A stretch of 63,993 nucleotides of DNA, filler included, from Perkinsus olseni (Eukaryota), in NCBI GenBank assembly GCA_013115125.1. It is 6 parts of 6 records of this genome, joined end to end, with 100 filler letters (N's around TTAATTAATTAA, not from the genome) between each part and the next. Parts side by side here need not be neighbours in the genome. Positions count along the whole stretch, not along the records: positions 44,392 to 55,360 come from JABANN010000849.1; 5 more parts are not named here. One strand, given 5' to 3'. Position numbers and translations under genes: made by a program. The first letter of the stretch is position 1, and each line of letters begins with the position of its first letter. The notes beneath the pieces were generated by a model. That model did no database searches. It was not told the origin of the DNA and worked only from the letters and a program-made list of their open reading frames with translations. Below are positions 11,013 through 55,460 of the stretch, piece after piece.

Positions 11013-11112
11013 NNNNNNNNNNNNNNNNNNNNNNNNNNNNNNNNNNNNNNNNNNNNTTAATTAATTAANNNNNNNNNNNNNNNNNNNNNNNNNNNNNNNN
11101 NNNNNNNNNNNN
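11013..11112. other. Artificial contig linker
   Basis: N44-TTAATTAATTAA-N44. Confidence 0.99.
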
Positions 11113-22120: not shown

Positions 22121-22220
22121 NNNNNNNNNNNNNNNNNNNNNNNNNNNNNNNNNNNNNNNNNNNNTTAATTAATTAANNNNNNNNNNNNNNNNNNNNNNNN
22201 NNNNNNNNNNNNNNNNNNNN
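22121..22220. other. Artificial contig linker
   Basis: N44-TTAATTAATTAA-N44. Confidence 0.99.
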
Positions 22221-25304: not shown

Positions 25305-26907
25305 ATGGCTGATCGTAATGGATGTCATGGGAAATATATTTTATCTATAGACCAAGGGACTACCTCTTCACGGGCCATCATCCTTGCTGAGGATGGTCAG
25401 GTGGTACACGTCAAGGGGTATCCTTTCGAACAGAAGTATCCGAATCCAGGATGGTGTGAACAGGATCCATATGATATATTACAATCAACGATAAGATCAA
25501 TTAATGAGGTGTCAGAACTGATAACACCTTATGGTTGTATAACAGCAGTTGGTATAACTAATCAACGTGAAACAGTTATAGCATGGGACAAGGTAACTGG
25601 TAAACCATTATACAACGCTATTGTATGGCTTGATTTGAGGACCTATGATACTGTAAAGGCCCTTACAATGGATGGTAGTAAAGACAGATTCCGTCAGATT
25701 ACTGGATTGCCAATCAGTACTTACTTTACTGCTCTCAAGATAAGATGGTTATTGGATAATGTCGACGATGTTAGTGATGCTGTGAAAGAAGGAAGATGCC
25801 TTTTTGGTACCGTTGACTCATGGCTGACATATAATCTAACAGGAGGGCCTGATAATGGTGGAATACATGTTACTGATGTTACCAATGCGTCGAGGTAAGG
25901 AGAGTCGCTTTAGTGAAGTCTAGGTTGATATGTGTAGGTACATGCTGATGGACCTTGAGAAACTCGAATGGTGTGAAGATATCTGTAATGAATTGGATAT
26001 CCCTTCAGATACACTACCAACCATAGTACCTAGTTGTGGTCATATTGGTACAATCACCAACTCAGAGTCCGAGAACAGGGATCACCAATTGCATCCCTCT
26101 CTCTTCAACGTACCTATAACAGCGATACTGGGTGATCAGCAATCGGCCTTACTGGGTCATGGGTGTGTGAAAGTTGGTCAGGCTAAGTGCACATATGGTA
26201 CAGGCTGTTTTATGTTAGCCAACACCGGCGATAAGATTATACAGTCATCTTTTGGTCTCCTCACGACAGTGGCATTCAAGCGTGAAGGGGGTCCCGTGTA
26301 CTATGCTCTAGAAGGCTCAGTAGCCATCGCTGGTAGAGCTGTACAATGGTTACGTGATCAACTGGGTGTAATAGAATCAGCACCAGAGGTAGAGGAGTTA
26401 GCTAGTACAGTACCAAATACAGGAGGGGTTACTGTAGTACCGGCATTCTCTGGTCTATTCACTCCACACTGGCGTCCTGATGCTAGAGCTGTTATTGCCG
26501 GTATGACCTTGGGTACTACTAAAGCACATATATGTAGAGCAGTACTGGAGGGTGTAGCATTACAAGTGGTGGATGTTGTGAGGGTCATGGAGCGTGAGTT
26601 AGAACATCCATTATCTGAGTTTTATGCTGATGGTGGTATGACTGGTAATAATCTCTTGATGCAGATGCAGGCAGATTTCCTACCAAAAGAGATATATCCT
26701 GCCATGATGGCCGAGACTACTGCCTTTGGTGCTGCTTATGCTGCTGGTTTGGCTGTTGATCTATGGAAAGTGCCGTTACAAGAGCTGATAGCCAACCTAG
26801 GAGGTCATAGAAAGATAGAACCACACCCAGCAGCATTGGAGAGAAGGAAGGCTATAAGGAGGAGATGGAATGATGCACTGCAAAGATCTCTAGGTCTTGA
26901 GGAGTAA
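25305..26907 (+). CDS. GK: Glycerol kinase (intron 25895-25937)
   Basis: IDQGTTSSR, GITNQRET, YNAIVW, TDVTNASR, GDQQ, TYGTGCF, YALEGS and DGG motifs. Confidence 0.95.
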
Positions 26908-27280
26908 GCTAGAGACTCAGCACGCTATGCTACTCACTGCTACAACATCACAGGTACTGCCCTCTGCCTGATGAGTAGCAACAGCAGCAGCAGACAATCT
27001 GCTAGCATGATCGGTAGTGGCCGTCAGTTAATTTTTATGTTTAAGCGCCAATCGCATGGTGGTCGTGACTATTTTGTAGTTTCTTGCTCGTCCTAGTCCT
27101 GGTGTGCTGCTGCTGCTGAGTTAACCATGCTCAATTCCATCGTCGTACGTGCAACTCGCCGTGCTTCGCCGCCTCGATCGCATGTGGCATTCTAGCTAGG
27201 GTAAGAGCAGGTTACCGTCAGACTTTCTTTATCATAAGGCTCATTGCCTCTCCCTCCCGTCCATCCCTCGTACGTAACAC

Positions 27281-27283
27281 ATG

Positions 27284-27315
<32 letters not shown>

Positions 27316-28942
27316 GTCCGAGTATGTTCTCGCTATCAATGTGGGGACCACATCGGCTAGGGCAGCCCTTTTTGCAAAGGACGCTCGATTGGCCCATTCT
27401 AGACAGTACTTTTTTGAACAGAAATATCAGAATCCAGGATGGTGTGAACAGGATCCATATGATATATTACAATCAACGATAAGATCAATTAATGAGGTGT
27501 CAGAACTGATAACACCTTATGGTTGTATAACAGCAGTTGGTATAACTAATCAACGTGAAACAGTTATAGCATGGGACAAGGTAACTGGTAAACCATTATA
27601 CAACGCTATTGTATGGCTTGATTTGAGGACCTATGATACTGTAAAGGCCCTTACGATGGATGGTAGTAAAGACAGATTCCGTCAGATTACTGGATTACCA
27701 ATCAGTACTTACTTTACTGCTCTCAAGATAAGATGGTTATTGGATAATGTGGATGATGTTAGTGATGCTGTGAAAGAAGGAAGATGCCTTTTCGGTACCG
27801 TTGACTCATGGCTGACATATAATCTAACAGGGGGGGCTGATAATGGTGGAATACATGTTACTGATGTTACCAATGCGTCGAGGTACGGAGATGCAGCGCT
27901 TCTCCTCGCCAGCGTTAGTATCCGTGCGATGACCTCGTGCCTTGTATAGATTGGCCAGTAAAGTCTGCTCAATGATTCATATTGTTTTCTCAGATACATG
28001 CTAATGGACCTGAAGACTCTTGAGTGGTCAGAGGAGGTATGTCATGCTCTTAACATACCCCTTGAGACGCTTCCCAAGATTGTACCGAGCTCTGGATACA
28101 TTGGTACCATATCCTCCGCCCTTCATCCTGCAATATGTAATGTCCCTATAACTGCTATGCTTGGAGATCAGCAATCTTCATTAGTCGGTCATGGTTGTAT
28201 ACAGGAAGGGCAAGGGAAGATGACGCTCGGTAAGGGTTGCTTTATGCTGGTCAATACAGGTCAGCATATTGTACCCTCATCATTCGGTATATTGACTACG
28301 GTAGCATTTCAAAGGAGTGGTGGTGATGTCTACTATGCGCTCGAGGGTTCGATCGCGAACACCGGTCGAGCAGTCCAGTGGTTGTGTGAAAAGTTACAGC
28401 TCATAGACACCCCGGATGAGGTAGAGAAGTTGGCACTCACCGTTCCCAACACTGGTGGAGTTACATTCGTGCCGGCCTTCACCGGCCTCTTCGCACCATA
28501 TTGGCGTCCTGATGCACGAGCAGTTATTACTGGTATGACATTAGGCACAACGAAGGCTCACATATGTCGGGCAGTACTGGAGGCAGTGGCTCTTCAAGTA
28601 TTGGATGTGGTGGAGGCCATGGAAAAGCATATTGGCCATCCATTGGAGATGTTCTATGTGGATGGTGGTATGACCAAGAATGATCTATTCCTGCAGATGC
28701 AGGCTGATACCCTGGTCAAGGAGCTATACCCTGCTAACCTATTTGAGTTTACCTCTTTTGGTGTTGCCTACGCTGCTGGGTTAGCGGTTGATTTCTGGGA
28801 TAATGTGCCGCTACAGAGTCTCATCTTGAACCTTGGTGGTCATAGGAAGGTGGAGCCTCACTCGGAGGCATTGACACAGAGAAAGGCTGTCAGGCGAAGA
28901 TGGAACGATGCGTTGCAACGCTCACTCAACTTGGAAGAGTAA
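27281..28942 (+). CDS. GK: Glycerol kinase paralog with altered active-site motifs (intron 27883-27993)
   Basis: Full-length FGGY fold, but INVGTTSAR replaces IDQGTTSSR and TLGKGCF replaces TYGTGCF; poly-Ser N-terminus. Confidence 0.9.
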
Positions 28943-33218: not shown

Positions 33219-33318
33219 NNNNNNNNNNNNNNNNNNNNNNNNNNNNNNNNNNNNNNNNNNNNTTAATTAATTAANNNNNNNNNNNNNNNNNNNNNNNNNN
33301 NNNNNNNNNNNNNNNNNN
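33219..33318. other. Artificial contig linker
   Basis: N44-TTAATTAATTAA-N44. Confidence 0.99.
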
Positions 33319-44291: not shown

Positions 44292-44391
44292 NNNNNNNNN
44301 NNNNNNNNNNNNNNNNNNNNNNNNNNNNNNNNNNNTTAATTAATTAANNNNNNNNNNNNNNNNNNNNNNNNNNNNNNNNNNNNNNNNNNNN
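44292..44391. other. Artificial contig linker
   Basis: N44-TTAATTAATTAA-N44. Confidence 0.99.
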
Positions 44392-45580
44392 CTCGTCGAG
44401 AGGGTTGCCAGTGACAAGTCCCTGAGTGGTGTATAGAGGAGAGAGATCGACCTTACTGTTAAGGAGGTACCTCGGTGTACGGGCTTGGGAAGGAGAGCCA
44501 AGAAGGTGAGGGAGCAAGGGCATGCCTTCTAACAGAGTGTCGTCTCTGAGGAACTCGAATATGGGCTTCTTGGCAAGGAAGTAGTCGGGAGACTCGAGCA
44601 TGCAGTACTCCTCACCCAATTGTCATCCCCAATTGCGACAATTTCCCCAGATTGTCGCTGGAGAGGCTCAGACCGACGAGGCCACCTTTCGACTTATCGC
44701 CCCCCCACTTTCTTGATGTCGAACTCTTCAACCGTGGCGTAAACCAGAGTCTCTGGATCAGCATCGCCTCTAGCGGTACCGGTACTCGTTCGAAAGAGCG
44801 TAACCAATGATCCGTAGATAAGATGCGAGCCCAATGTAAAATCCACTGGCCTTGGACAAGAAAACGTGAACTGAACGTAAAGGTTGCCACTCGAGGATAT
44901 AAGGAATGGGCGTCTTGTAGTCCTCACGTGCTCGTAGCATACCGTCCTTGATGTCGCCTCATAAGCCGAGGGTATCCCCATCGCTGGGCACAGGGCCTCC
45001 TTGAGGGGAATAACGAACTCTTGCCTCAAGCAGTGGTAATGTGTGGCCCGGTACAGAAGGAGATCCTGTTCATTCTTAGCATCCCACATGCTGTTGACTC
45101 TGTTCACCAGCCGAGGTTTCTTTTTGTTATAAGTTGGCCCCTCAACGATCTCCTCCAATTGGGGTAGAAGGTTAGCGGCTTTCATGAGCTTGTCACAGAG
45201 CACAACGTCGACGTCCTCAGGCTTGCCCGGCTTCACCATTCCGCGCAGCTTCCTCGAAGCGCCGCCTTCTTTATGAAAAACGAGCTGCTTCATTAGCAGC
45301 TCTAACTGCTCACTATGACCCCCAATGGCTCGAGCACGGGCAGATATCACTTCTGCTGATACCAAGCCCGCTGACTCAGGATCCCAGCGACAAACCTCCA
45401 CCATGACCTTCGTATACTCAATCAGCTGCTGAGACAGACGAACCTTGGCCACGTAATCAGAAGTGGCGACAACCAAGGTGGCGCTCACGGTCTGAATGAG
45501 TTGGTAGAACTTAGCTTTTTCGAAAGCATCCCCAGCCATCACCACTGCGGAGATGAACACACGCATGCCCTCGGGTGTAT
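44392..45580 (-). pseudogene. ZNFX1: ZNFX1-like helicase copy B, N-terminal region downstream of the insertion
   Basis: YRATHYHCLRQEFVIPLKEAL, HLIYGSLVTL and MLESPDYF resemble the ZNFX1 pre-helicase region; frameshifts at the G-run (~44700) and at a short duplication (~44625). Confidence 0.8.
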
Positions 45581-45821
45581 CACGACTCGTACACCGAAAA
45601 CTCGTACACTTTCATTTCGTACACGACTCGTACACTGAATACTCGTTCACCCCTTGGATCCGTACACCGTCATTTCGTACATTTGAAACTCGTACACATA
45701 ATACTCGTACACATAAAACTCATACACGTAAAACTCATACACATAAAACTCATACACCGTCAACTCGTACACGAGCACGACTCGTACACTATGCTGCTTG
45801 AGTCGCATTTTTGGGCCGCAC

Positions 45822-48800
45822 TGTAGAACGCAACCAAGGTAAACGTGGTAGATAAGTTGGGAATCAATGGTATGATAGGAATTGGCTAATGGTAGACAGT
45901 ATGTAGCTTAATAGTAGCGCTCGCCCTGACACAACTCATAGTCTTGTGGTATAACATCTCCTCCTCTTCGAAAAAAAATAGGATATATTCTAAAGCAGTT
46001 TAATATCGTAACCGTGGACAATCACAATATTATCATCTGATTTCTTCACTTGGATTCTATTATCTCCTAATTGCTGTACGACAACGGCAGGCGTCCACCG
46101 CCTTTGAAGTTTAGGAACATTTCCTGAAATCCTGACCAACACATTAAGGCCTGGTTTCAACTGAGTCTTAGTCGGAGACTTCATTATCTCTTGTAAATAG
46201 CTATATGATTCATGACACTCTATGGGAACTTCAGGGCGCATACTCGGGGAAAACTTGAAAATATTAGTATGTGGACTCTCTCCTCGCCGTTGAGGAGTTA
46301 CATTGTACTGATAACAAGCTCTATTTGCCAAATTGAAAAACGTCGCAGTAGAGGCGTTCCCTGTATCAATATGTGCTCGTAAATATTCATTCAAGTATCT
46401 ATGCCATCGTTCTATCTTTCCATTACAAAAACTAGCATGAACTGGATTCAGCAGATGCACTATATTCATCTTCTCCAAGAATGCTTCTATCTCTTTTGAT
46501 TTATACTGGGATCCATTATCCGTGTGCAAGACTAACGGTCGTCGATGGAACGTATCGAAAATTGATTGCAAAAAATTTCGCACATCAATTGACGTTGGCA
46601 TATTCAGACATGGTCGGACGACTACATAATCTGAATAGCTATCTTTCGCTGTTATAACATAATAACGGCTCGATCCACCTGATTGACTGTACGGTCCACA
46701 GATGTCGGAATGAATCCTATCCCAAGGTCTCGGCGCTGTTTTTATCGAAACTAACGGGACCAACGGTTTCTTATCGTTTGGGAAAGCCTTCGCCATGGAA
46801 CACGTTTGGCACTTATAAAGATTACATTCTGATGCCAAACCTGGCATATCAACCCATCTCTTGAGTTTGGCGAATTGTGCAGCTTTACCTTCATGGTCAT
46901 GCGTCAGTGTCAATAACTCCTGTGCCTTATCTCGAGGGATGCTAATACGTTTGTCGTGCACCTGAAATTCACTTAACCATAGCTTCAACTTTTCTGACCG
47001 TTCTTTCTCCTCATTTTCTATACGTGTTGCTGCTAGCACTTGTTGACCATCCTCTTCGCTCTTAGTAGCGATGTCACGTAGTGTTTGGATGAATTTCTTG
47101 GATAACCGTGGATGCAATCTCGATGGCACATCTGCCTTATTATTTTCTGAGGACACATAGCTCACATTAAGGGTTATATTAAATTTCTCGACTATGTCAT
47201 CTATTAATTGCAGTCTGCCTTCAATTGCTACCTTACTCATTCCTTTTATATTTTGCCATTTTCTTTCCTGTTTCCGTGTCAACCAGTGTTGTAACGAAAC
47301 ATTATCTACCCGTAAGTGAACTTCTTGCTTCTTAATATTATATGCTTTCATGTAATCCACCACAAGTTCCATACCTCTGAGCGCTGCTTCTGTTTCAGCT
47401 ATATTTATATGTCTCCTACAATTTTTTGGTCGTAACCATGCTCTATCCTCCACTACTACACCATCAAAACACAATACCGCAGCTAATGCTACAGAACTTG
47501 AATCCGTAAACAGCTCCCACTTCGATACCGGATTTACGGACCATACTCCCTTTACTGGATCCTCCTTTTTGACAACCTGTGCTAATGAGACCCATAATTC
47601 CTTGACTTCATCATTCAAAGGGTAATCTTCATTCTCACAATTTTTCGATCTTTCTACTGCGCTTATTCTTGTGAGCATCGCGGCAGTTACTCGTAACCAT
47701 CCCGCTACGGGATATACTGGCGTTAATCTTCCTATGTACGAAGCTAATTCCGCTTTCGTTTGTGGGATTTTTTCTAGTATGTCAGCTATTGGCTTTCCTC
47801 TACTCCAAGTTCCGTCCTCATTTATGTGTATTCCTAATACTGTCGAACCGTATAATGGCTTAGGAGGTTTTATGTCAAACGAGTTGTTCGCGAGTTCCTT
47901 TTTCACTATAGGAAAGTCTTTTTTATTCACTACCATGTCATCGACAAATTTGTAGACTTTTCGCTTGGTTGGTATTCTTTCTATTATATAGTCCAACGAT
48001 TCATCAAGCGCTTTACCGCTGATATTACAACCGAATCCGGCTCTAGTCATTACATACATGTTGTCTTTACCTTTCAAATGAGGGAATCTTACGCATTGAT
48101 AATACGTTTGTTCTTTCTTAACTCGGATCATCATGTAAGCGTGTTTTATATCTATGGCGAGTGTCTCATTCGGGTCTAGCGTTCTCCAAATCCTTATCAT
48201 TTTTTGGCAGTTGATTGGTTCTCCGCTTGAATTCGGCATACTTTCTATTCGAGAGTTGAGCCAAGTGTAATCAAGTACGACCCTCACTGGTGTAGTTCTA
48301 CCTAGTGATACAACTGGCATCGTCGTTATATACCCTTTCACTTTACACCGCGGAATTTTCACGAAATATTTCCTATCTATCATATCCTGTACGGACTTGT
48401 GAAATAATTCTAGTTCATGTGGGGTTAACTTTTTCATTTGTTCTTCATAATGTGGTGGTCTATATACCATATCTTCCGGTTTTTGCTTCCATATCCATTC
48501 TACTTCCCACATATACTTACTGTCATCTTCATCATTCTTTTTCCGTCTTAATATAATATCTTTGTTCTGAAGGACTACATTATCGACATGCTGAACCGAT
48601 GTTTCCTCGCTGCGCTTTCGTTTCATTACTCTTTGATTTTCTCTCGTTTGCTCCACTGGATCGCCTCCGCTTACCATACCGGCTATCCACGATCCCATAC
48701 TGTTAACTTTCAACGTTAACTGTCCACACGCTCTCAACCAATCCATACCGAACAACGCCTGTATTTGAGTACTTCCCATGCTCAAAATGCTTTCCTGATT

Positions 48801-50368
48801 GACTATCCATGGTTGAACTCCTACTCCGCACAATCTCATTTCGAAACTATCAACTGCTTGATATGCAGTAACTGATCCTGTGAGCGTTGTCAACTTAAGT
48901 TTTTTCTGGGCTTGAGGGATCAAGGAAATACCTGTAGTATCACCAATATATGACGCAACTGTTTCACTGACTACCGAGATCGTACTACCTGTATCGATCA
49001 TCGCCAAGAACTGTTTATTCTCACTCTTTTTACTTGGGCGATCACACCTGAGAATCACGGAGAGATAACGGCTCTCTTGGGTGCAAAGCTCGCCTTCAAT
49101 CACTACGTTCTCAGTGGTCTTATTATTACGCACATTCGAAGGACACTGTGCAGACCTGTGCCCTCGTCCATTGCATGTAAAGCATCTGATGGACCTTTCT
49201 CCTTTTCCTATGGTCTTATAACGGAGACCTTTGCCCTTTCCATACCAAAACCCTTTGCCTTTTCCTTTCGCCCCTTTAGCTTTTCCTTTGCCTTTATACC
49301 CGTAAGCAATAGCAGACACATGCTGGGCTTCATCTTCTGGGGGCTTAGCAACAACAAATCCTTCTGATAACGTCAAACAGCCTTGTACTATATCTCGCCG
49401 ATTCTGCCACAATTCGCGCCACTGTGCGCGAATGGCGGCAAGACCGGGTAAGTCTTGCGGAATTCCATTCCAATATTGTAAGCAGGCAGTCGCATTGACC
49501 CACGTACGGTCTGGACGCACACTCGGGGGTATGGCTGCTGACGCGAGCCTTTGTAGCTCCGTAAGGTACTCTCCAGGAGTTTCACCAACCTTCATCCTCC
49601 TTGTGGTTAACTCCCGCCAGGCCGCAAAAGAACATGGGCCATACCTGTCCAGAAGGACTTTTTTAGCTTGCTTGTACGCAGTCTTGTCATCAATACCACT
49701 ACCAACCTTGACATTCGCACTTACAGTATTATAAGCCGACCCTCTCAGGTTCAACTTCAATAGAGCAAGGCGCTTGTTTACCGGTAGAAATTGTGATAGC
49801 ATCTCCATAGACTCTTCAAATTTCTGTAACCATTGTACCACATCTTCGCCATCATGACCACCGGAGAAAGGGGTCGACATAATGTTGTAGTTCTTCAACG
49901 AACCATTTAGACCATTAGTAACCGATGATGTTGAAGTCAACGACGGCACGCTTTTACCATCATTAGAGTCACTCTTCTGATTAGTTGATGTGCTGCTGGA
50001 GCTCTTATCTTTTGGCACCTGCTCCTCAGTGTCTCCATCGGCAAGATGCTGTTCACGTAGGGAGTCTTCTGTTCTTGCTTTACCATCATCGCCGTCCTCG
50101 ACGACATCTTCTTGTGTTTCTGCTTGCTCACGCTGTTCACTCTCCTGCTGCTCTTCTTCCGGAGTCGCGACTGCTATGAAGTTCTCGAAATCACCAAGCT
50201 CGAGGTTTAAGTCGTCAAAGGGTCTGGGCACCATGTAGAACGCAACCAAGGTAAACGTGGTAGATAAGTTGGGAATCAATGGTATGATAGGAATTGGCTA
50301 ATGGTAGACAGTATGTAGCTTAATAGTAGCGCTCGCCCTGACACAACTCATAGTCTTGTGGTATAACA
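45822..50368 (-). mobile_element. Intact Ty3/Gypsy-order LTR retrotransposon (4547 bp)
   Basis: Identical 135-bp TGT...ACA LTRs (45822-45956, 50234-50368); CGCAC TSD; PBS-like TGGTGCCCAGA; PPT gaagaggaggaga. Confidence 0.97.
45990..50234 (-). CDS. Single-ORF Gag-Pol polyprotein
   Basis: CCHC knuckle CFTCNGRGHRSAQC; protease IDTGS; RT IDIKHAY/FVDD; RNase H FTDSS..HINIAE..VDN..NKAD; integrase HSDICGP/HTDNGSQY/NGKIERW. Confidence 0.96.
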   Translation of the reverse strand: MVPRPFDDLNLELGDFENFIAVATPEEEQQESEQREQAETQEDVVEDGDDGKARTEDSLREQHLADGDTEEQVPKDKSSSSTSTNQKSDSNDGKSVPSLTSTSSVTNGLNGSLKNYNIMSTPFSGGHDGEDVVQWLQKFEESMEMLSQFLPVNKRLALLKLNLRGSAYNTVSANVKVGSGIDDKTAYKQAKKVLLDRYGPCSFAAWRELTTRRMKVGETPGEYLTELQRLASAAIPPSVRPDRTWVNATACLQYWNGIPQDLPGLAAIRAQWRELWQNRRDIVQGCLTLSEGFVVAKPPEDEAQHVSAIAYGYKGKGKAKGAKGKGKGFWYGKGKGLRYKTIGKGERSIRCFTCNGRGHRSAQCPSNVRNNKTTENVVIEGELCTQESRYLSVILRCDRPSKKSENKQFLAMIDTGSTISVVSETVASYIGDTTGISLIPQAQKKLKLTTLTGSVTAYQAVDSFEMRLCGVGVQPWIVNQESILSMGSTQIQALFGMDWLRACGQLTLKVNSMGSWIAGMVSGGDPVEQTRENQRVMKRKRSEETSVQHVDNVVLQNKDIILRRKKNDEDDSKYMWEVEWIWKQKPEDMVYRPPHYEEQMKKLTPHELELFHKSVQDMIDRKYFVKIPRCKVKGYITTMPVVSLGRTTPVRVVLDYTWLNSRIESMPNSSGEPINCQKMIRIWRTLDPNETLAIDIKHAYMMIRVKKEQTYYQCVRFPHLKGKDNMYVMTRAGFGCNISGKALDESLDYIIERIPTKRKVYKFVDDMVVNKKDFPIVKKELANNSFDIKPPKPLYGSTVLGIHINEDGTWSRGKPIADILEKIPQTKAELASYIGRLTPVYPVAGWLRVTAAMLTRISAVERSKNCENEDYPLNDEVKELWVSLAQVVKKEDPVKGVWSVNPVSKWELFTDSSSVALAAVLCFDGVVVEDRAWLRPKNCRRHINIAETEAALRGMELVVDYMKAYNIKKQEVHLRVDNVSLQHWLTRKQERKWQNIKGMSKVAIEGRLQLIDDIVEKFNITLNVSYVSSENNKADVPSRLHPRLSKKFIQTLRDIATKSEEDGQQVLAATRIENEEKERSEKLKLWLSEFQVHDKRISIPRDKAQELLTLTHDHEGKAAQFAKLKRWVDMPGLASECNLYKCQTCSMAKAFPNDKKPLVPLVSIKTAPRPWDRIHSDICGPYSQSGGSSRYYVITAKDSYSDYVVVRPCLNMPTSIDVRNFLQSIFDTFHRRPLVLHTDNGSQYKSKEIEAFLEKMNIVHLLNPVHASFCNGKIERWHRYLNEYLRAHIDTGNASTATFFNLANRACYQYNVTPQRRGESPHTNIFKFSPSMRPEVPIECHESYSYLQEIMKSPTKTQLKPGLNVLVRISGNVPKLQRRWTPAVVVQQLGDNRIQVKKSDDNIVIVHGYDIKLL

Positions 50369-50436
50369 CGCACGCTGAGAGCAATGCCGGAGCGAAGGAA
50401 GTAATATTATCTATAGAGAGCGAATTGTTTGCGCCA

Positions 50437-50530
50437 ACCTGTGAGTAAATATTCAGTAGTGTAAGTGGTATGGAGGTTAAGGTAACGGGTTACCAATCCA
50501 AAGGTCGTGGGCTCGATCCTATGTACAGGT
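50437..50530 (+). other. tRNA-like segment inside the TIR element
   Basis: acctgt/acaggt closing stem, A-box-like tggtatggagg, and aggtc-gtggg-ctcgat-cctat T-arm-like region. Confidence 0.45.
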
Positions 50531-50594
50531 CCGGCGTTGCAGGGAGGAGATAAATCGCGAAGAGTAGGCGGCAGAGCGCCGGCGGAGCCGGCAC

Positions 50595-50649
50595 GAAAAT
50601 TTTTTAGGCAAGTCGCGGAGCCGCTCCGCGACTTGCCCAAAAAATTTTC
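50595..50649. repeat. Palindrome, 27-bp arms (1 mismatch), 1-nt centre
   Basis: gaaaattttttaggcaagtcgcggagc-c-gctccgcgacttgcccaaaaaattttc. Confidence 0.95.
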
Positions 50650-50916
50650 ACTGGGTGTACGAAATGACGGTGTACGAGTTGAAAGTGGGTGTGTGTATGA
50701 AATGACGATGTACGAGCATTATGTGTACGAGTGTTCTGTATGCGAGGTTTATGTGTACGAGTATTTTGCGTACGAGTTTTACATGTACGAGTTTTCAGTG
50801 TATGAGTTTTCCGTGTACGAGTCCTCAGTGTACGGGTATTCGGTGTACGAGTCAGAGGTGTACGAGTATTCGAGACATGAGTCGAAAATGTACGAGTTTT
50901 CGGTGTACGAGTCGTG

Positions 50917-51316
50917 AACATCCCATGCCCTCGGCGTCGATGATCCCCAGAAGGTCCCTGATCTTCTCGCGGAGGCCGTTGCAGACCTTCAAGCATAGAT
51001 CGGGATCTTCCTTGTCTAGGGTTCGACGTAGTATAAGCGTTAGCTCAGACGATGATCGTATCCTCGTCGCAGAGTTCGCGATAGCACGCTCCGAGAATGC
51101 ACTAGTGTTCCCATACATGCCCGCGAAACCGCAATGGCCCTTGCCATTTCCAGAAGAACCACGACCCTTAGACGGCAGACGACCACCAACACCCTTGCCC
51201 GGGAGACGACCACGCCCTTTACCGCCACCCTTACCTTTCCCTTTGGCAGTGCCGGGTTTCCCGGCAGCCGGGTTCCTCGAAGCTGAAGACGCTCCGAAGC
51301 GTTTGGGCGGAGGCAT
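50917..51316 (-). pseudogene. ZNFX1: ZNFX1-like copy B, first coding segment (KG-rich N-terminus)
   Basis: MPPPKRFG...DAEGMGC joins in frame to YTPEGMRVF once 45581-50916 is removed. Confidence 0.75.
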
Positions 51317-51607
51317 GAAGCACGAGCAAACTGGGGAGCAGGGGGATGACTAGAGCACAAATCCGGGAAACACTGAATGCTCTCACATGTACCGTCGAAC
51401 GACACTTATGCCGTTTTCTCGCTACCGGGACCCACCACTTTGAGAAACACGTATCCCAGCAGACTAAAAGAAATGAGAATGGATGATTCGACAGGCGCTG
51501 ACAATACGGTTCCTTAGTCAACCGTTCGCAACTCGCAGATGAAGAAAATTGTTGATGATCGAGCAGCGACTGTCCATCAAGGACAGGCTCAGGAATCCAT
51601 CGTTGGC

Positions 51608-54600
51608 TCAGGCCCCTCCCCCCATACCTGGCCAGTTCGGCCTTGCACTGACGCCGGTGAAATCTGCCACGAAGGTGTTCCCAGCAGCAGAGCTGTGATT
51701 GGCACCACCGATAACAGCTCCGCATTCAGGACAAGCTGCGGCCGTCATGGCCCCACCACAATCGGCAATGAAGTAGGGGTGACCATTAGGGCAGGCGAAC
51801 CAGCGTCCAGCAGCTGCACCCCAACCGTCAGATGACATAGCTTCGTTGATGGCGTGACGTTCTTCCAAGGTCACTTCCTGTCGGAAGGCTTTTAATAGTT
51901 TCCCCTTCACCTTGGCCAGGAGTGATAGTTGAGTCTTGACAATGTTGTTGTACCTGAGATAGCATGATGCTCAAAACTACACCGCTGAGACCAAAGAGCA
52001 ACTCAACGCGACGACGAGGATGACTAGACAGTCAACGCACTCTAACAGTTTGAGCAGATAACGGCCACCGCCTTCAGAGTTGCAGAGTACTCGAGCCTCA
52101 AAGTAGGCTCCCGTTATCGTGCCAATCCGACGAGCCTGTCTTCGTGTATCGGCTTCGATGCTAGGGAAATCAAGTATGCCGTCCCACCTTGGAGCGGTAA
52201 AGATCGTCTTCTTGCACGTAGGGCAGGACCTCAGCTGGATAGCCTTATGTTCACCCTTGGAGGCATCATAGGTCATGTACCTGTTAGAGAACACAGATGA
52301 GGCCTCACCCTATAAGGGATCGAGATTCGGCTTACGTATCAAGGCCATCGACGAAGAAGGTATGTCCACAGTCGGGGAGCATGTAAAGCCTTGAGCCGTC
52401 CTACAGTGCCGAGCCGATAGTGTCCAACAAAATGGTGTCCTCGACCTCGGGGAAGCAGCGAGGGCAGGTCGGGCATGGCTCACCGCACAGTCCTTGGCAG
52501 GGATGACCACACTCCAGTTCGAGCGTGCAGTGGGCGTTGCAGCGAGGCCTCTCACAAGGCTCATGGCACAGCTTCTCACACTTATGATGAGGGCACCGCC
52601 AAAGGCAGGGCTCACGACACGGTATACAGACCTCGCAGCAAGCTTTGCTGCAAGCATTACCGTGAAGGCACCGCATACCGCACTCGCGTTCACAGAGCTT
52701 CGTGTGGGGCTCTCCACACGCCTCGTTACAACTATGCCCACATGCCAGCTCTTGATCGCAAGCTTCCTCACATTTAACCTTGGTGTGGTCATGAGGAGGG
52801 GAGCAGAATTGAGGGCAGGGGTGGCCACAGGGTAAGACCACTTCACACTGTCTTCTGCATTTCTTCACATCATTGCAGATCTGCTCCACGTCATGACCAC
52901 AGGGAGCCTTCACCGTACGCTTATAAGTGCACTGCAAGTCAGCAGACTTGGACTTGTAACAGTGTGTCGACAACTCGTGGCCGCAGGGGAGACGTACCGG
53001 AACCATCTGCAGGCAGCGCCTCTCTATTGGATCATCTCGCATGAAGCAGCGAACGTCCTTCTGATGGCCGCAGGGAAGACCGACCGACACCAACGCCTCA
53101 CACGGGGTCTTGCAGATGTCCATCGGCTCAGCATCTGCTTTAGTGCACTTGAAGCAGAGGTTCGGGCATTTGTGGCTGCACCCTGCCGGTCTGGGCCGAT
53201 TGCAAGGCCTGTCGCACGTTACCATCTCATGATCAAAGACATGACAATTGAGTGGGCACCGATGACCACAGGCCGGGAGTAACATCCTACAGGGCTCGCG
53301 GCAGCCACCGTCACGAACGCAGTAGAAGTCATTCGGATCGGAGATGTTCTCGAGGTTAGCCGGATGGACACGACACTTCAGGGTCAGTGCCGGCCCAATG
53401 CGACCTTGCTGACGTAAGCATTGCAGCACAGCCTTCCAGCTCTGTGAGGGATCGAACATCTCGGAGTGGCCCAGAATATACAGTCCCTCCTTCGCTCTAG
53501 ATAGCGCCACGATGACCCGATTCTCGATACCAATAAATCCGATCTTCTTGGCCTCGTTCGAGCGGACCAGCGACAAGATGACCACTTTGTTTTCCTCACC
53601 CTGGTAGTCGTCGATGGTAGCCACCCTCACCCCGACGACATCTTGCTTTTTGTTTGAGCGGATCTCGGGGTTCAAGTAGCTGCGCATGAGACGCTTCTGG
53701 CCAATGTAAGGAGTCAGAAGGGTGATGTCTTCCGGCTGATACTGCTGAGCGGACCAGATAGAAGGCAAGACTGGCCGCGAATCTCGCTTCATAGTCGTTC
53801 TTCTTGGAGGTGCCCTCAAACGACTGTTCGGATTGGCGATGGTCGAGGAAGTAGACGTCAGTCGCCACGCCCCCGACTCTGTCATACTTCTTGACCCTCT
53901 CGTGGTCGATAAGCCCATCCACGTAGAAGTGCTTCACCAATTGGCTGGCCTCAGGCCGCATACGGAGTTGAGTGGAGAGCTTGGCGAAGGGGACGTTGAG
54001 GTTGATGAGTCTCTCGAAGAGGGAGATGTCGAAATGGTTCTTCCGGCATAACTCGAAGGCGTTTATCTTCGGTCGTAACTGCTGATGGTCACCAATCATC
54101 ACCACGTGCTCCAACTTGGGAGAGGAGAGACTAGAAATAAGCTGACATTCTAGCAGCTCCCCAGCCTCTTCTATGATGACCACTCTCGGCGCCAGACGAT
54201 GCACCAGATCTCTATTGAGGGCTGCGTAGGTACTGGTCATGCCAATCAGCCTCGACCCGCGGCATGCTCGGAAAAGCAAAGCCTTGCGATACTGCATGTA
54301 GCCCTTGCCCGCCTCTTCGCCCTTCCTATAGATGTCTCTGAGCTTCGCCTTCATTGGGCCTTCGAGGGCGGAGCCAACAGCCTCAATCAATCCCTGGCGG
54401 CTACGCCGAGACGGAGCTGCTTGGTTCACACAGATGTTGCCAGCCTCGTGAACGGCCACATGACAAGCGGCCGCCACCACTGTAGTACCGAAAGATACCT
54501 CCAGCCTCTTGCGGATCTTACGCTGAAAGCTAGCCGCCATGCTGAGCTCGTCCCTCCAAGAACGGTCGATCTCCAGGGCATCCACGTTATCATCATCAGG

Positions 54601-55287
54601 ACGCTCCACAGCAGCGGCCACACGGGCACCGGCAGCCTGATCGATTCGTAGACCAACCCTAGCGGCCCGTCTTCTGTCACCCTCACCAAAGATCTGTTCC
54701 CCAATCATGCGTTCTTGCTCGACGAGATCGAGGAGATCCAAGTCGAGCTCGTCAATGTCGATTTCGGTGTTTCTGCGAGTGGGAGTGCCGAACTCGAACA
54801 AGTGATCGACCAGCCGATCAACCCCGGCCTCCATCTCCTCGGACAGGTCCCTCCTCTGGCGTTCCGGTAAACCCTCGAACGCTTCGTATCCGCGGGATGC
54901 CTTGCCAGGGTCGAACCGGTTGGAAGTCTTCACTCTGTGCTTGACATCGAACCCGCGCTCGTTCAACCAGGCCTTCTCGAGACCGGCCATCTGCCTCTCC
55001 GTCCCATCCAACCAAATGCGCAGCGACTCCATCGCAAACTCGGCAGCATAATGGCCAAGTCGAGCGAAGCTCATCTTCCAACCAACGGGTGACAAGATAC
55101 GCTGGAAGAGGCTGAAGGGCATGTAGGCTAGGAGGCAGACCAGTTGAGCGTCACCACCTTGATAGAGGGCGGCCACTGAGTTCAGAGTACGACAGGTGGA
55201 CTCCAGCTGATCTTTGAAATCCTGACGCCGCTGGTAGTCTTCGCTGTTCTCCCTCATCTTGGCACGGACATGACATTCCTGGAGAGG
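51608..55287 (-). pseudogene. ZNFX1: ZNFX1-like helicase copy A, C-terminal half
   Basis: SF1 motifs IIEEAGE, IGDHQQLRP, SLFERL, QLRM, TIDDYQGEE and VALSRA; NF-X1 Cys repeats; RZ finger WFACPNGHPY. Frameshift at ~53748 and in-frame TAG at 52401-52403. Confidence 0.9.
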
Positions 55288-55360
55288 GTTATACCACAAG
55301 ACTATGAGTTGTGTCAGGGCGAGCGCTACTATTAAGCTACATACTGTCTACCATTAGCCA
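55288..55360 (+). mobile_element. Third (partial) LTR of the same family, opposite orientation, at the contig end
   Basis: gttataccacaag...ccattagcca is the exact reverse complement of LTR 45883-45955. Confidence 0.92.
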
Positions 55361-55460
55361 NNNNNNNNNNNNNNNNNNNNNNNNNNNNNNNNNNNNNNNN
55401 NNNNTTAATTAATTAANNNNNNNNNNNNNNNNNNNNNNNNNNNNNNNNNNNNNNNNNNNN
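55361..55460. other. Artificial contig linker
   Basis: N44-TTAATTAATTAA-N44. Confidence 0.99.

What the first reader, a model, noticed from the sequence alone, without database searches (positions are those of the whole stretch)
45581..50916. Unclassified TIR element that inserts without an evident TSD and carries a tRNA-like segment, a 55-bp palindrome and GTACGAG arrays
Seen: perfect 28-bp CAC...GTG TIRs, ~15-nt-period subterminal arrays, an internal palindrome and a tRNA-like segment. The flanks (gtgtat | aacatc) share no duplication. Excising exactly CAC...GTG restores the host frame (EGMGC-Y-TPEGMRVF), implying insertion at T^A; the alternative reading is TCAC...GTGA ends with a 1-bp duplication. 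Known: CAC-ended superfamilies (CACTA, Mirage, Chapaev, Transib) make 2-5 bp TSDs; Spy (no TSD) targets AAA^TTT; Helitrons lack TIRs. Inference: a non-autonomous member of an undescribed or atypical DNA-transposon group.
Basis: partly seen in the sequence, partly recalled or inferred. Interest (0 to 1): 0.85.

Follow-up and report, generated by a model that had tools for sequence, protein, structure and literature searches.

The report
Miniature transposon carrying a nested retrotransposon
This is an ordinary gene-less cut-and-paste transposon of the shellfish parasite Perkinsus that landed in a gene, duplicated 8-11 bases of its target as such elements normally do, and was later hit by a retrotransposon.

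Summary
The inverted ends, the 15-nt-period GTACGAG arrays and the 55-bp palindrome are real. The claim that made the finding interesting, insertion without a target-site duplication (TSD), is wrong.

- **TSD:** an 11-nt direct repeat (45564-45574 and 50924-50934) brackets the insertion.
- **True ends:** other copies of the family stop matching at 45572-45573 and at 50924. The element therefore runs GGG...CCC (45573-50924), and its TSD is 8 nt (best reading) to 11 nt.
- **Nested element:** 85% of the flagged span is an intact LTR retrotransposon (45822-50368). It has identical 135-bp LTRs, a 5-bp TSD and a 1414-aa gag-pol ORF, and other copies of the family lack it.
- **The element itself:** about 0.8 kb, non-coding and multicopy, so MITE-like.
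- **tRNA-like segment:** ARAGORN and Rfam do not support it.

The superfamily stays open because no autonomous copy could be reached. GG(G) ends with an 8-9 bp TSD fit Merlin best; Mutator/Foldback is next. I found no description of this family in the papers searched.

The parts
45564..45574 (.). Left copy of the 11-nt direct repeat (CATGCCCTCGG). The 8-nt core 45565-45572 is the most likely target-site duplication.
   Evidence: Exact 11-mer found only at 45564 and 50924. Present once in the empty-site contigs of X7 and X8. Chance 52/195,488.
45573..45613 (+). Left terminal inverted repeat, starting GGG. The perfect part is 45580-45613.
   Evidence: Other copies' contigs start matching at 45573 (X1 4, X7 8, X8 8 contigs) or 45572 (X7 6, X8 7).
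45573..45790 (+). Left arm: array of 12 CTCGTACAC-like sites, mostly 15 nt apart. Presumed transposase-binding sites.
   Evidence: Function is inferred.
45817..45821 (.). 5-bp target-site duplication (CGCAC) of the nested LTR retrotransposon, left copy.
   Evidence: Joints 45816->50369 in other copies.
45822..45956 (-). 3' LTR of the nested retrotransposon: 135 bp, TG...CA, preceded on the minus strand by a polypurine tract.
   Evidence: D5, 100% identical to 50234-50368.
45990..50234 (-). Intact gag-pol ORF, 1414 aa from the first ATG at 50234. It contains a zinc knuckle, aspartic protease, reverse transcriptase, DUF7047 and an integrase core.
   Evidence: Integrase match to PDB integrases.
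50234..50368 (-). 5' LTR of the nested retrotransposon, followed on the minus strand by a primer-binding-site-like TGGTGCCCAGACCC.
50369..50373 (.). 5-bp target-site duplication (CGCAC) of the nested retrotransposon, right copy.
50374..50651 (+). Non-repetitive internal part of the TIR element. This part is variable or deleted in other copies.
   Evidence: no tRNA. Joints 50436->50594, 50484->50639 and 50529->50594 in other copies.
50595..50649 (.). 55-bp palindrome (27-nt arms). The one mismatch is private to this copy: every covering contig in X1, X2 and X8, and nearly all of the depth in X7, reads T at 50638, which makes the palindrome perfect.
   Evidence: table 3, place 50638.
50652..50924 (+). 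Right arm: array of 14 GTGTACGAG-like sites, inverted relative to the left arm.
50884..50924 (-). Right terminal inverted repeat, ending CCC.
   Evidence: Other copies' contigs stop matching at 50924 (X2 5, X7 8, X8 8) or 50926 (X8 2).
50924..50934 (.). Right copy of the 11-nt direct repeat (8-nt core 50925-50932).
44697..45572 (-). Host ZNFX1-like gene, coding sequence downstream of the insertion.
   Evidence: 92% identical to P0002 residues 290-580. Weak ZNFX1-domain Pfam hit, below the curated cut-off.
50925..51142 (-). Host ZNFX1-like gene, coding sequence upstream of the insertion.
   Evidence: 80% identical to P0002 residues 219-292.

Best explanation
The flagged span is two mobile elements, one inside the other, in a coding exon of a ZNFX1-like gene of a Perkinsus species.

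The outer element (45573-50924) is about 0.8 kb once the nested insert is removed. It is a non-coding, multicopy, MITE-like cut-and-paste DNA transposon. It has a roughly 41-nt terminal inverted repeat that starts GGG and ends CCC. Each arm (about 220-270 nt) is built from 12-14 copies of a 9-10-nt motif spaced 15 nt apart and inverted between the two ends.

Inferred mechanism: a DDE transposase encoded elsewhere binds these sites, pairs the ends, excises the element and joins it to staggered cuts in the target. Repair of the stagger gives a target-site duplication, which here is 8 nt (ATGCCCTC). It can be read as up to 11 nt because the neighbouring host bases happen to match the element's terminal G and C bases.

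Later, an intact Ty3/gypsy-order LTR retrotransposon (45822-50368, minus strand) integrated into the outer element with its own 5-bp duplication.

The superfamily of the outer element is unresolved. GG(G) termini with an 8-9 bp duplication fit Merlin best.
For: Shown:
- **Empty site at DNA level.** One 4159-nt contig in X7 and one in X8 joins 45574 directly to sequence homologous to 50935 onward. The 11 letters 'between' begin with the same six letters as window 50935-50940. What is missing is therefore 45575-50934 (tables 5, 5c, 8).
- **Empty site at protein level.** Both flanks align to the same residues 290-292 (EGM) of P0002, which reads straight through the site.
- **The 6-7 nt outside CAC...GTG belong to the element.** Contigs of other copies begin matching at 45573 or 45572 and stop at 50924. 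One X1 contig ends ...GTCGTGAACATCC and then runs into unrelated flank (table 7). The two ends align back to GGG with 1 mismatch and 1 gap.
- **Multicopy.** 189-437 contigs per run were laid over the whole 6.1-kb stretch. Word depth over the arms is 20-600 times that of the flanks; the tool warns that this is not a copy number.
- **Nested retrotransposon.** Identical 135-bp LTRs and TG...CA ends; CGCAC on both sides; primer-binding-site-like and polypurine tracts and a 1414-aa ORF; protease, RT and integrase domains. Other copies of the outer element lack it, with joint 45816->50369 seen in X1 (3 contigs), X7 (1) and X8 (1).

From a paper: Merlin elements have 24-462 bp TIRs with conserved terminal GG and 8-9 bp TSDs (PMC8101967, passages read).

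Inferred: transposase binding to the arrays, mobilisation in trans, and the order of events.
Against: - Only this one copy was seen with both flanks, so the duplication length (8, 9, 10 or 11) rests on where other copies' contigs stop matching, not on a set of aligned insertions.
- Two single contigs deviate. One in X2 starts matching only at 45575, and one in X1 has G after ...CATCC.
- X7 and X8 may be near-duplicate samples.
- The empty-site contigs are 7-10% diverged from the window, and P0002 is a predicted protein of another lineage. Neither is the same strain's empty allele.
- No transposase or autonomous copy was found, so cut-and-paste by a DDE enzyme is inference from anatomy.
- The Merlin paper could not find TIRs or TSDs around the two preserved Merlin ORFs of P. 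marinus. This does not help the Merlin reading.
- Repbase, which holds P. marinus families, could not be consulted.
Confidence: 0.9

Rival explanations
1. The outer element is a Mutator-like or Foldback-like element. Its duplication is 9-11 nt, and its arms are long, imperfect TIRs made of tandem sub-repeats.
For: - The exact repeat in this copy is 11 nt. Recalled from the Wicker et al. 2007 classification, not read here: only Mutator commonly reaches 9-11 nt.
- The arms are 110-124-nt inverted matches of 71-78% built from tandem 15-mers (I1-I6). This resembles Foldback elements, which are linked to Mutator in the title and abstract of PMC3169594 (search listing only).
Against: - Most other copies match through GGG and CCC. 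That leaves 8 nt of true duplication here, which is short for Mutator.
- No MULE transposase was seen.
Confidence: 0.25
2. The outer element belongs to another superfamily that makes 8-bp duplications (hAT, P/Galileo-like, Novosib, Zisupton) or to one not yet described.
For: An 8-nt duplication is the best reading. Subterminal binding-site arrays are common in hAT and P elements (recalled).
Against: The termini are GGG...CCC, not the YARNG of hAT or the CA-start of P elements (both recalled). Nothing else discriminates.
Confidence: 0.2
3. One reading: the element is exactly CAC...GTG (45581-50916), inserted at T^A with no duplication or a 1-bp one, and represents an atypical TIR group.
For: The perfect part of the TIR starts at T/CAC. 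Excision of CAC...GTG leaves an open frame.
Against: - The empty site lacks 24 nt more than this model predicts.
- Other copies share the extra 8 nt at each end.
- An 11-nt flank repeat is unexplained under this model.
Confidence: 0.02
4. The 24 extra nucleotides are a host-side tandem duplication or a repair footprint unrelated to transposition, and the element has some other insertion chemistry.
For: Only one insertion was seen with both flanks.
Against: - The extra 6-8 nt at each end recur at other, unrelated insertion sites.
- They form the imperfect outer part of the TIR.
Confidence: 0.03

Closest known systems
Merlin superfamily (IS1016/IS1595-related DDE transposons) and their MITEs
   Same: TIR length falls within the 24-462 bp range. 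The termini begin GG. An 8-9 bp target duplication is compatible with the 8-nt reading here. Merlin-related ORFs exist in Perkinsus marinus (PMC8101967, passages read).
   Different: No DDE_Tnp_IS1595 transposase is linked to this family. That paper found no TIRs or TSDs around the P. marinus Merlin ORFs. The dense 15-nt-period arrays are not described there.
Mutator-like elements, including Foldback-type elements
   Same: Long inverted arms made of tandem sub-repeats, G-rich termini, and a long duplication (the repeat in this copy can be read as 9-11 nt).
   Different: The best reading of the duplication is 8 nt. No MULE transposase was seen. The Mutator and Foldback properties are recalled, except for the title and abstract of PMC3169594.
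MITEs (structural class of non-autonomous TIR transposons)
   Same: About 0.8 kb, no coding capacity, TIRs, a target duplication, many copies, and internal deletion variants.
   Different: It lies at the upper end of the usual MITE size range, and the parent element is unknown.
CACTA / En-Spm
   Same: A CAC motif near the end and subterminal repeat arrays.
   Different: CAC is 8 nt inside the true end. The duplication is 8-11 nt, not 2-5.
Ty3/gypsy-order LTR retrotransposons (for the nested element)
   Same: LTRs with TG...CA, a 5-bp duplication, primer-binding-site-like and polypurine tracts, and the gag / protease / RT / RNase H-region / integrase order. Distant hits carry the RT_RNaseH and integrase domains typical of Ty3-like elements.
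   Different: The LTRs are very short (135 bp), and the first ATG straddles the LTR edge. The nearest database protein is only 31% identical, and the RT matches Pfam RVT_1 below its cut-off.

Membership tests
   The empty-site contigs lack 45575-50934. The orthologue lacks GCYTPEGM. An 11-nt flank repeat is present.
CACTA/EnSpm, Chapaev, Transib, Mirage | CAC(TA) at the very termini and a 2-5 bp TSD. | tested here: not met
   The true termini are GGG...CCC, 8 nt outside CAC. The duplication is 8-11 nt.
Merlin | 8-9 bp TSD. | tested here: inconclusive
   The repeat is 11 nt, of which 8 remain if GGG/CCC belong to the element, as most other copies indicate. Only one copy was seen with both flanks.
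Merlin | TIRs beginning with GG. | tested here: met
   Both ends read GGG after alignment. Other copies match through these bases. The criterion comes from PMC8101967.
Merlin | DDE_Tnp_IS1595 transposase in autonomous copies with the same TIRs. | not testable with these tools
   No genome is held. The metagenome scans found no relatives.
Mutator/MULE (including Foldback) | 9-11 bp TSD (recalled criterion). | tested here: inconclusive
   9-11 nt is possible only if some of the terminal G/C bases are host DNA, and most other copies argue against that.
Mutator/MULE (including Foldback) | MURA-type (MULE domain) transposase in autonomous copies. | not testable with these tools
   Same limits as for Merlin. 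The window's ORFs of 220 aa or more were listed, but only those in the finding were scanned against Pfam.
hAT | 8-bp TSD and YARNG termini (recalled criterion). | tested here: not met
   The duplication is compatible, but the termini are GGGTG / GGGAT.
Dada | Insertion into tRNA or snRNA genes, no TIRs, 6-7 bp TSD. | tested here: not met
   The target is a protein-coding exon and the TIR is clear. Criteria come from PMC3706591 (passages read).
Helitron / Helentron | No classical TIRs, no TSD, insertion at A^T or T^T (recalled). | tested here: not met
   A TIR and a duplication are present.
MITE (structural class) | Short, non-coding, with TIRs and a TSD, in many copies. | tested here: met
   About 800 nt without the nested insert. 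No protein-family hit for its longest ORF. Many junction contigs in 4 of 4 runs laid.
LTR retrotransposon (nested element) | Direct LTRs with TG...CA, a 4-6 bp TSD, PBS, PPT, and gag-pol with RT and integrase. | tested here: met
   The PBS is judged only by position and the TGG start; no tRNA was matched to it.
tRNA-derived segment | Cloverleaf recognised by tRNA models. | tested here: not met
   ARAGORN and Rfam find none.

The most novel reading that the evidence does not exclude
The family could be a recently active transposon lineage of Perkinsus with no description in print. One version is that it is the missing TIR-bearing partner of the 'orphan' Merlin-like transposase ORFs reported in P. 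marinus without recognisable ends. The other is that it belongs to a superfamily not yet defined, with GGG ends, an 8-nt duplication and arms made wholly of phased binding sites. Its perfect duplication, its perfect inner TIR and its presence or absence between lineages suggest movement into coding exons in the recent past.
Probability: 0.12. Interest if true: 0.4.

Novelty: new member of a known kind. Interest (0 to 1): 0.2.

Why it matters
It matters mostly as a correction. A supposed TSD-less TIR transposon, which would have been a new insertion chemistry, turns out to be a conventional element whose outermost 8 nt are imperfectly inverted, and whose duplication was overlooked for that reason.

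There are three smaller points of value:
- It documents a multicopy MITE-like family and a divergent short-LTR retrotransposon in Perkinsus, a notifiable mollusc parasite whose mobile elements are little described.
- It shows a presence/absence insertion that disrupts a ZNFX1-like gene.
- It gives a concrete TIR sequence with which the autonomous partner, possibly the Merlin ORFs lacking known ends, could be sought.

Tried and rejected
- **Whole-genome search for other copies:** no genome is held for this window.
- **Paralogue of the host gene in the window as an internal empty site:** none found.
- **Metagenome scan with the 29-nt terminal pattern:** 0 hits.
- **Second metagenome scan with the two-site array pattern:** 16 loci. 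BLAST against the element matched 12 of them, and only over the short repeated motif. The six whose matching region I printed are simple tandem repeats, and L010, read separately, is a bacterial contig with Mur ligase, RNase HII and TsaD-like ORFs. None is a relative.
- **Longer predicted proteins that fuse the array-encoded ORF (P0007) to a transposase:** none at E<=0.01 among 238 candidates. The tool itself calls this weak evidence.
- **Earlier findings of this scan:** nothing for this genome, for the sequence or for the words searched.
- **tRNA detection at relaxed thresholds:** see the observation check.
- **Dada, which targets tRNA genes in P. marinus:** considered because of the 'tRNA-like' stretch. 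Rejected because Dada has no TIRs and a different target and duplication.
- **Introner (spliceable MITE) idea, prompted by PMC7789003:** no GT...AG pair that would restore the orthologous reading was seen by eye, and no RNA data were examined. Left untested.
- **The same strain's own empty allele:** no joint across the insertion is listed for X1 or X2. Contigs drop rare variants, so this shows nothing.
- **Papers:** four searches found no paper describing this family. Supplements were closed, and the Merlin paper's S3/S4 files, which list the P. marinus sequences, were not seen. Repbase was not available.
Full report
**What is in the sequence**

The region 45400-51100 was read directly and scanned for repeats.
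- Both arms are built from a 9-10-nt motif spaced 15 nt apart. There are 12 sites within one mismatch of CTCGTACAC on the left and 14 of GTGTACGAG on the right. None occurs in the opposite orientation on either side.
- The terminal 14-mer with up to two mismatches occurs 6 times in the window against 0.46 expected. 0 of 100 shuffles reached 6.
- The palindrome at 50595-50649 is real. As single-stranded DNA it folds at -27.4 kcal/mol, z = -9.6.
- The 'tRNA-like segment' is not supported. ARAGORN finds no tRNA in the region, in the whole window, or at thresholds relaxed to -ps80. At -ps70 it reports only two artefacts on the palindrome. Rfam gives no tRNA match at E<=1 over 5.7 kb or at E<=10 over the 287-nt internal part.

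**A nested retrotransposon fills most of the span**

One search also shows two identical 135-nt direct repeats, at 45822-45956 and 50234-50368.
- On the minus strand they begin TG and end CA.
- The 5' copy is followed at once by TGGTGCCCAGACCC, which is primer-binding-site-like. The 3' copy is preceded by GAAGAGGAGGAGA, a polypurine tract.
- CGCAC flanks the unit on both sides.
- Between the repeats lies an uninterrupted ORF of 1414 aa from the first ATG. It contains a zinc knuckle, an aspartic protease, a reverse transcriptase (below the Pfam cut-off), DUF7047 and an integrase core. The integrase region matches PDB integrases.
- Over the RT-to-integrase region searched (residues 560-1320), the nearest database protein is 31% identical. 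More distant hits carry the domain set of Ty3-like elements.

So 4547 of the 5336 flagged bases are an intact LTR retrotransposon that inserted into the TIR element. The TIR element itself is about 0.8 kb.

**Host and empty site**

No genome is held for the window. The downstream flank translated on the minus strand finds Perkinsus proteins. The best is P0002, a partial hypothetical protein of P. olseni, at 92% identity over 291 aligned residues.

P0002 reads ...LDAEGMRVFIS... through the site. The window reads ...DAEGMGC, then the insertion, then TPEGMRVFIS.... The upstream flank aligns to P0002 residues 219-292 and the downstream flank to residues 290-580, so residues 290-292 (EGM) are used twice.

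**DNA-level evidence from public runs**

Eight coded runs hold parts of the stretch. I laid four of them (X1, X2, X7, X8) on window:45200-51300.

- **Empty site.** One 4159-nt contig in X7 and one in X8 joins 45574 to 50946 with 11 letters between. The first six of those letters equal window 50935-50940. These contigs differ from the window flanks by 24-25 letters over 372 nt on the left, and by 37 letters plus 9 gaps over 355 nt on the right. They thus carry a single copy of the 11-mer CATGCCCTCGG and lack 45575-50934.
- **The 11-mer.** In the window it stands at 45564-45574 and 50924-50934 and nowhere else. An exact 11-nt repeat within 30 nt of both sides occurs in 52 of 195,488 random placements at the same spacing.
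- **Occupied allele.** X1 and X2, which come from two studies, have contigs crossing both host-element junctions with no differences (records 2, 8, 9 and 16). The insertion is therefore not an artefact of one assembly.

**True ends and length of the duplication**

I first checked how the tool reports a loose end. The row '50369 before' reproduces exactly the uninterrupted element sequence, which shows that 'place' is the first or last aligned base.

In the rows shown (24 of 222 loose-end rows), contigs of other copies behave as follows:
- They begin matching at 45573 (X1 4, X7 8, X8 8 contigs), at 45572 (X7 6, X8 7) or at 45575 (X2 1).
- They stop matching at 50924 (X2 5, X7 8, X8 8) or at 50926 (X8 2).
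- One X1 contig ends ...GTCGTGAACATCC and continues into unrelated sequence.

Aligning the two ends gives GGGTGTATCACGAC against GGGATGT-TCACGAC, which is one mismatch and one gap outside the perfect part.

With GGG and CCC assigned to the element (45573-50924), the duplication is 8 nt (ATGCCCTC, at 45565-45572 and 50925-50932). The three further matching bases would then be host bases that happen to equal the element's terminal bases.

Readings of 9, 10 or 11 nt cannot be excluded from one insertion. X7 and X8 may not be independent samples.

**Copies of the family**

- 189-437 contigs per run were laid over the whole stretch. Summed word depth over the arms (for example 33,321, 7,251, 8,512 and 12,049 for 45608-45811 in X1, X2, X7 and X8) far exceeds that of the left flank (352, 80.5, 19.5 and 21.8). 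The tool warns that this is not a copy number, but it fits a multicopy family.
- Other copies lack the retrotransposon. The joint 45816->50369 is seen in X1 (3 contigs), X7 (1) and X8 (1). Close variants of the joint appear in X1 and X2.
- Some copies carry internal deletions that remove the 'tRNA-like' stretch or part of the right array.
- At 50638, every covering contig in X1, X2 and X8, and nearly all of the depth in X7 (4979.5 of 5063.6), reads T. This makes the palindrome perfect in the family, so the mismatch here is private to this copy.

**Mechanism**

Shown:
- the anatomy (TIRs, phased inverted arrays, no coding capacity);
- a target duplication of 8-11 nt;
- many copies at unrelated sites;
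- presence or absence between lineages;
- nesting of an LTR element with its own 5-bp duplication.

Inferred: a DDE transposase encoded elsewhere binds the arrays, pairs the ends, excises the element and inserts it at cuts staggered by 8 (to 11) nt. Gap repair then creates the duplication. The retrotransposon came later, since other copies lack it, and recently, since its LTRs are identical.

In this lineage the combined 5.35-kb insert interrupts the ZNFX1-like coding sequence. Reading from the host runs on into the element for about 100 codons (ORF 50604-51044).

**Comparison with known groups**

- **Merlin.** From passages read in PMC8101967: Merlin elements have TIRs of 24-462 bp with conserved terminal GG and 8-9-bp duplications. 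P. marinus has two preserved Merlin ORFs for which no TIRs or TSDs were found. The present element meets the GG criterion and is compatible with the duplication criterion. The transposase criterion cannot be tested here.
- **Mutator/Foldback.** This is the main rival: long arms made of tandem sub-repeats, and a 9-11 nt duplication if some terminal bases belong to the host. Its criteria are recalled, not read.
- **hAT.** It fails on the termini (recalled criterion).
- **CACTA-like groups.** They fail on both termini and duplication.
- **Dada.** It has no TIRs and targets small RNA genes (PMC3706591, passages).
- **Helitrons.** They fail on TIRs and duplication.

Four literature searches found no description of this family. 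Repbase and the papers' supplements could not be consulted, so 'undescribed' is not established.

**What could not be done**

Attempts to reach further copies or an autonomous partner all failed.
- The metagenome pattern scans gave 0 hits and then 16 unrelated tandem-repeat loci.
- A protein search with the array-encoded ORF found nothing.
- The scan's earlier notes held nothing relevant.
- The window is itself a chain of small contigs joined by 100-nt spacers. The finding lies in the piece 44392-55360, so the rest of the window gives no context for it.

**Verdict**

The object is an ordinary MITE-like element with an 8-11-nt duplication and a nested LTR retrotransposon. It is a new member of a known kind, and the interest is low.

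Noticed in passing
window 11013-11112, 22121-22220, 33219-33318, 44292-44391, 55361-55460: There are five 100-nt spacers (44 N, TTAATTAATTAA, 44 N). They cut the window into six pieces of 11,012, 11,008, 10,998, 10,973, 10,969 and 8,533 nt. The window therefore looks like small contigs of a fragmented assembly joined in order of decreasing length, not one continuous locus. The finding lies wholly inside the piece 44392-55360.
   Followed up: partly
window 55288-55360: A 73-nt fragment identical to the inner end of the retrotransposon's LTR, in the opposite orientation, abuts the spacer at the end of the contig piece. It lies within or next to the upstream helicase/ZNFX1-like gene. It is probably a second insertion of the same LTR family, at which the assembly broke.
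   Followed up: partly
window 51600-55350, minus strand: A second ZNFX1/NFX1-type gene lies directly upstream of the interrupted one. Its helicase C-terminal region is followed by many CxxC/GH zinc-finger repeats. P. chesapeaki also has neighbouring genes of this family on one contig (P0003 and P0006).
   Followed up: no
window 45822-50368: Over the RT-to-integrase region searched (residues 560-1320), the nested retrotransposon's polyprotein is only 31% identical to its nearest relative, among proteins of 789-2512 aa. It carries a DUF7047 domain and matches Pfam RVT_1 below the cut-off. Its first ATG uses the last base of the 5' LTR. It appears to be a divergent short-LTR lineage.
   Followed up: partly
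window 25424-28942: A roughly 2-kb tandem duplication. A 300-nt block repeats at 98% identity, and further blocks repeat at 70-74%, with a spacing of 1988-2032 nt. It holds two ORFs of 327 and 326 aa.
   Followed up: no
L001 8113-8221 and L011 11846-11945 (metagenome contigs): Two AT-rich metagenome contigs end in perfect tandem arrays of a 15-nt unit containing the same ACTCGTACAC core as the element's binding-site motif. Nothing else in them resembles the element, so this is probably coincidence.
   Followed up: partly
window 50436-50650 versus other copies (joints): Other copies of the TIR family carry internal deletions: 50436->50594, 50484->50639, 50529->50594 and 50684->50860. These remove the 'tRNA-like' stretch or part of the right array, so the interior is dispensable cargo.
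   Followed up: no
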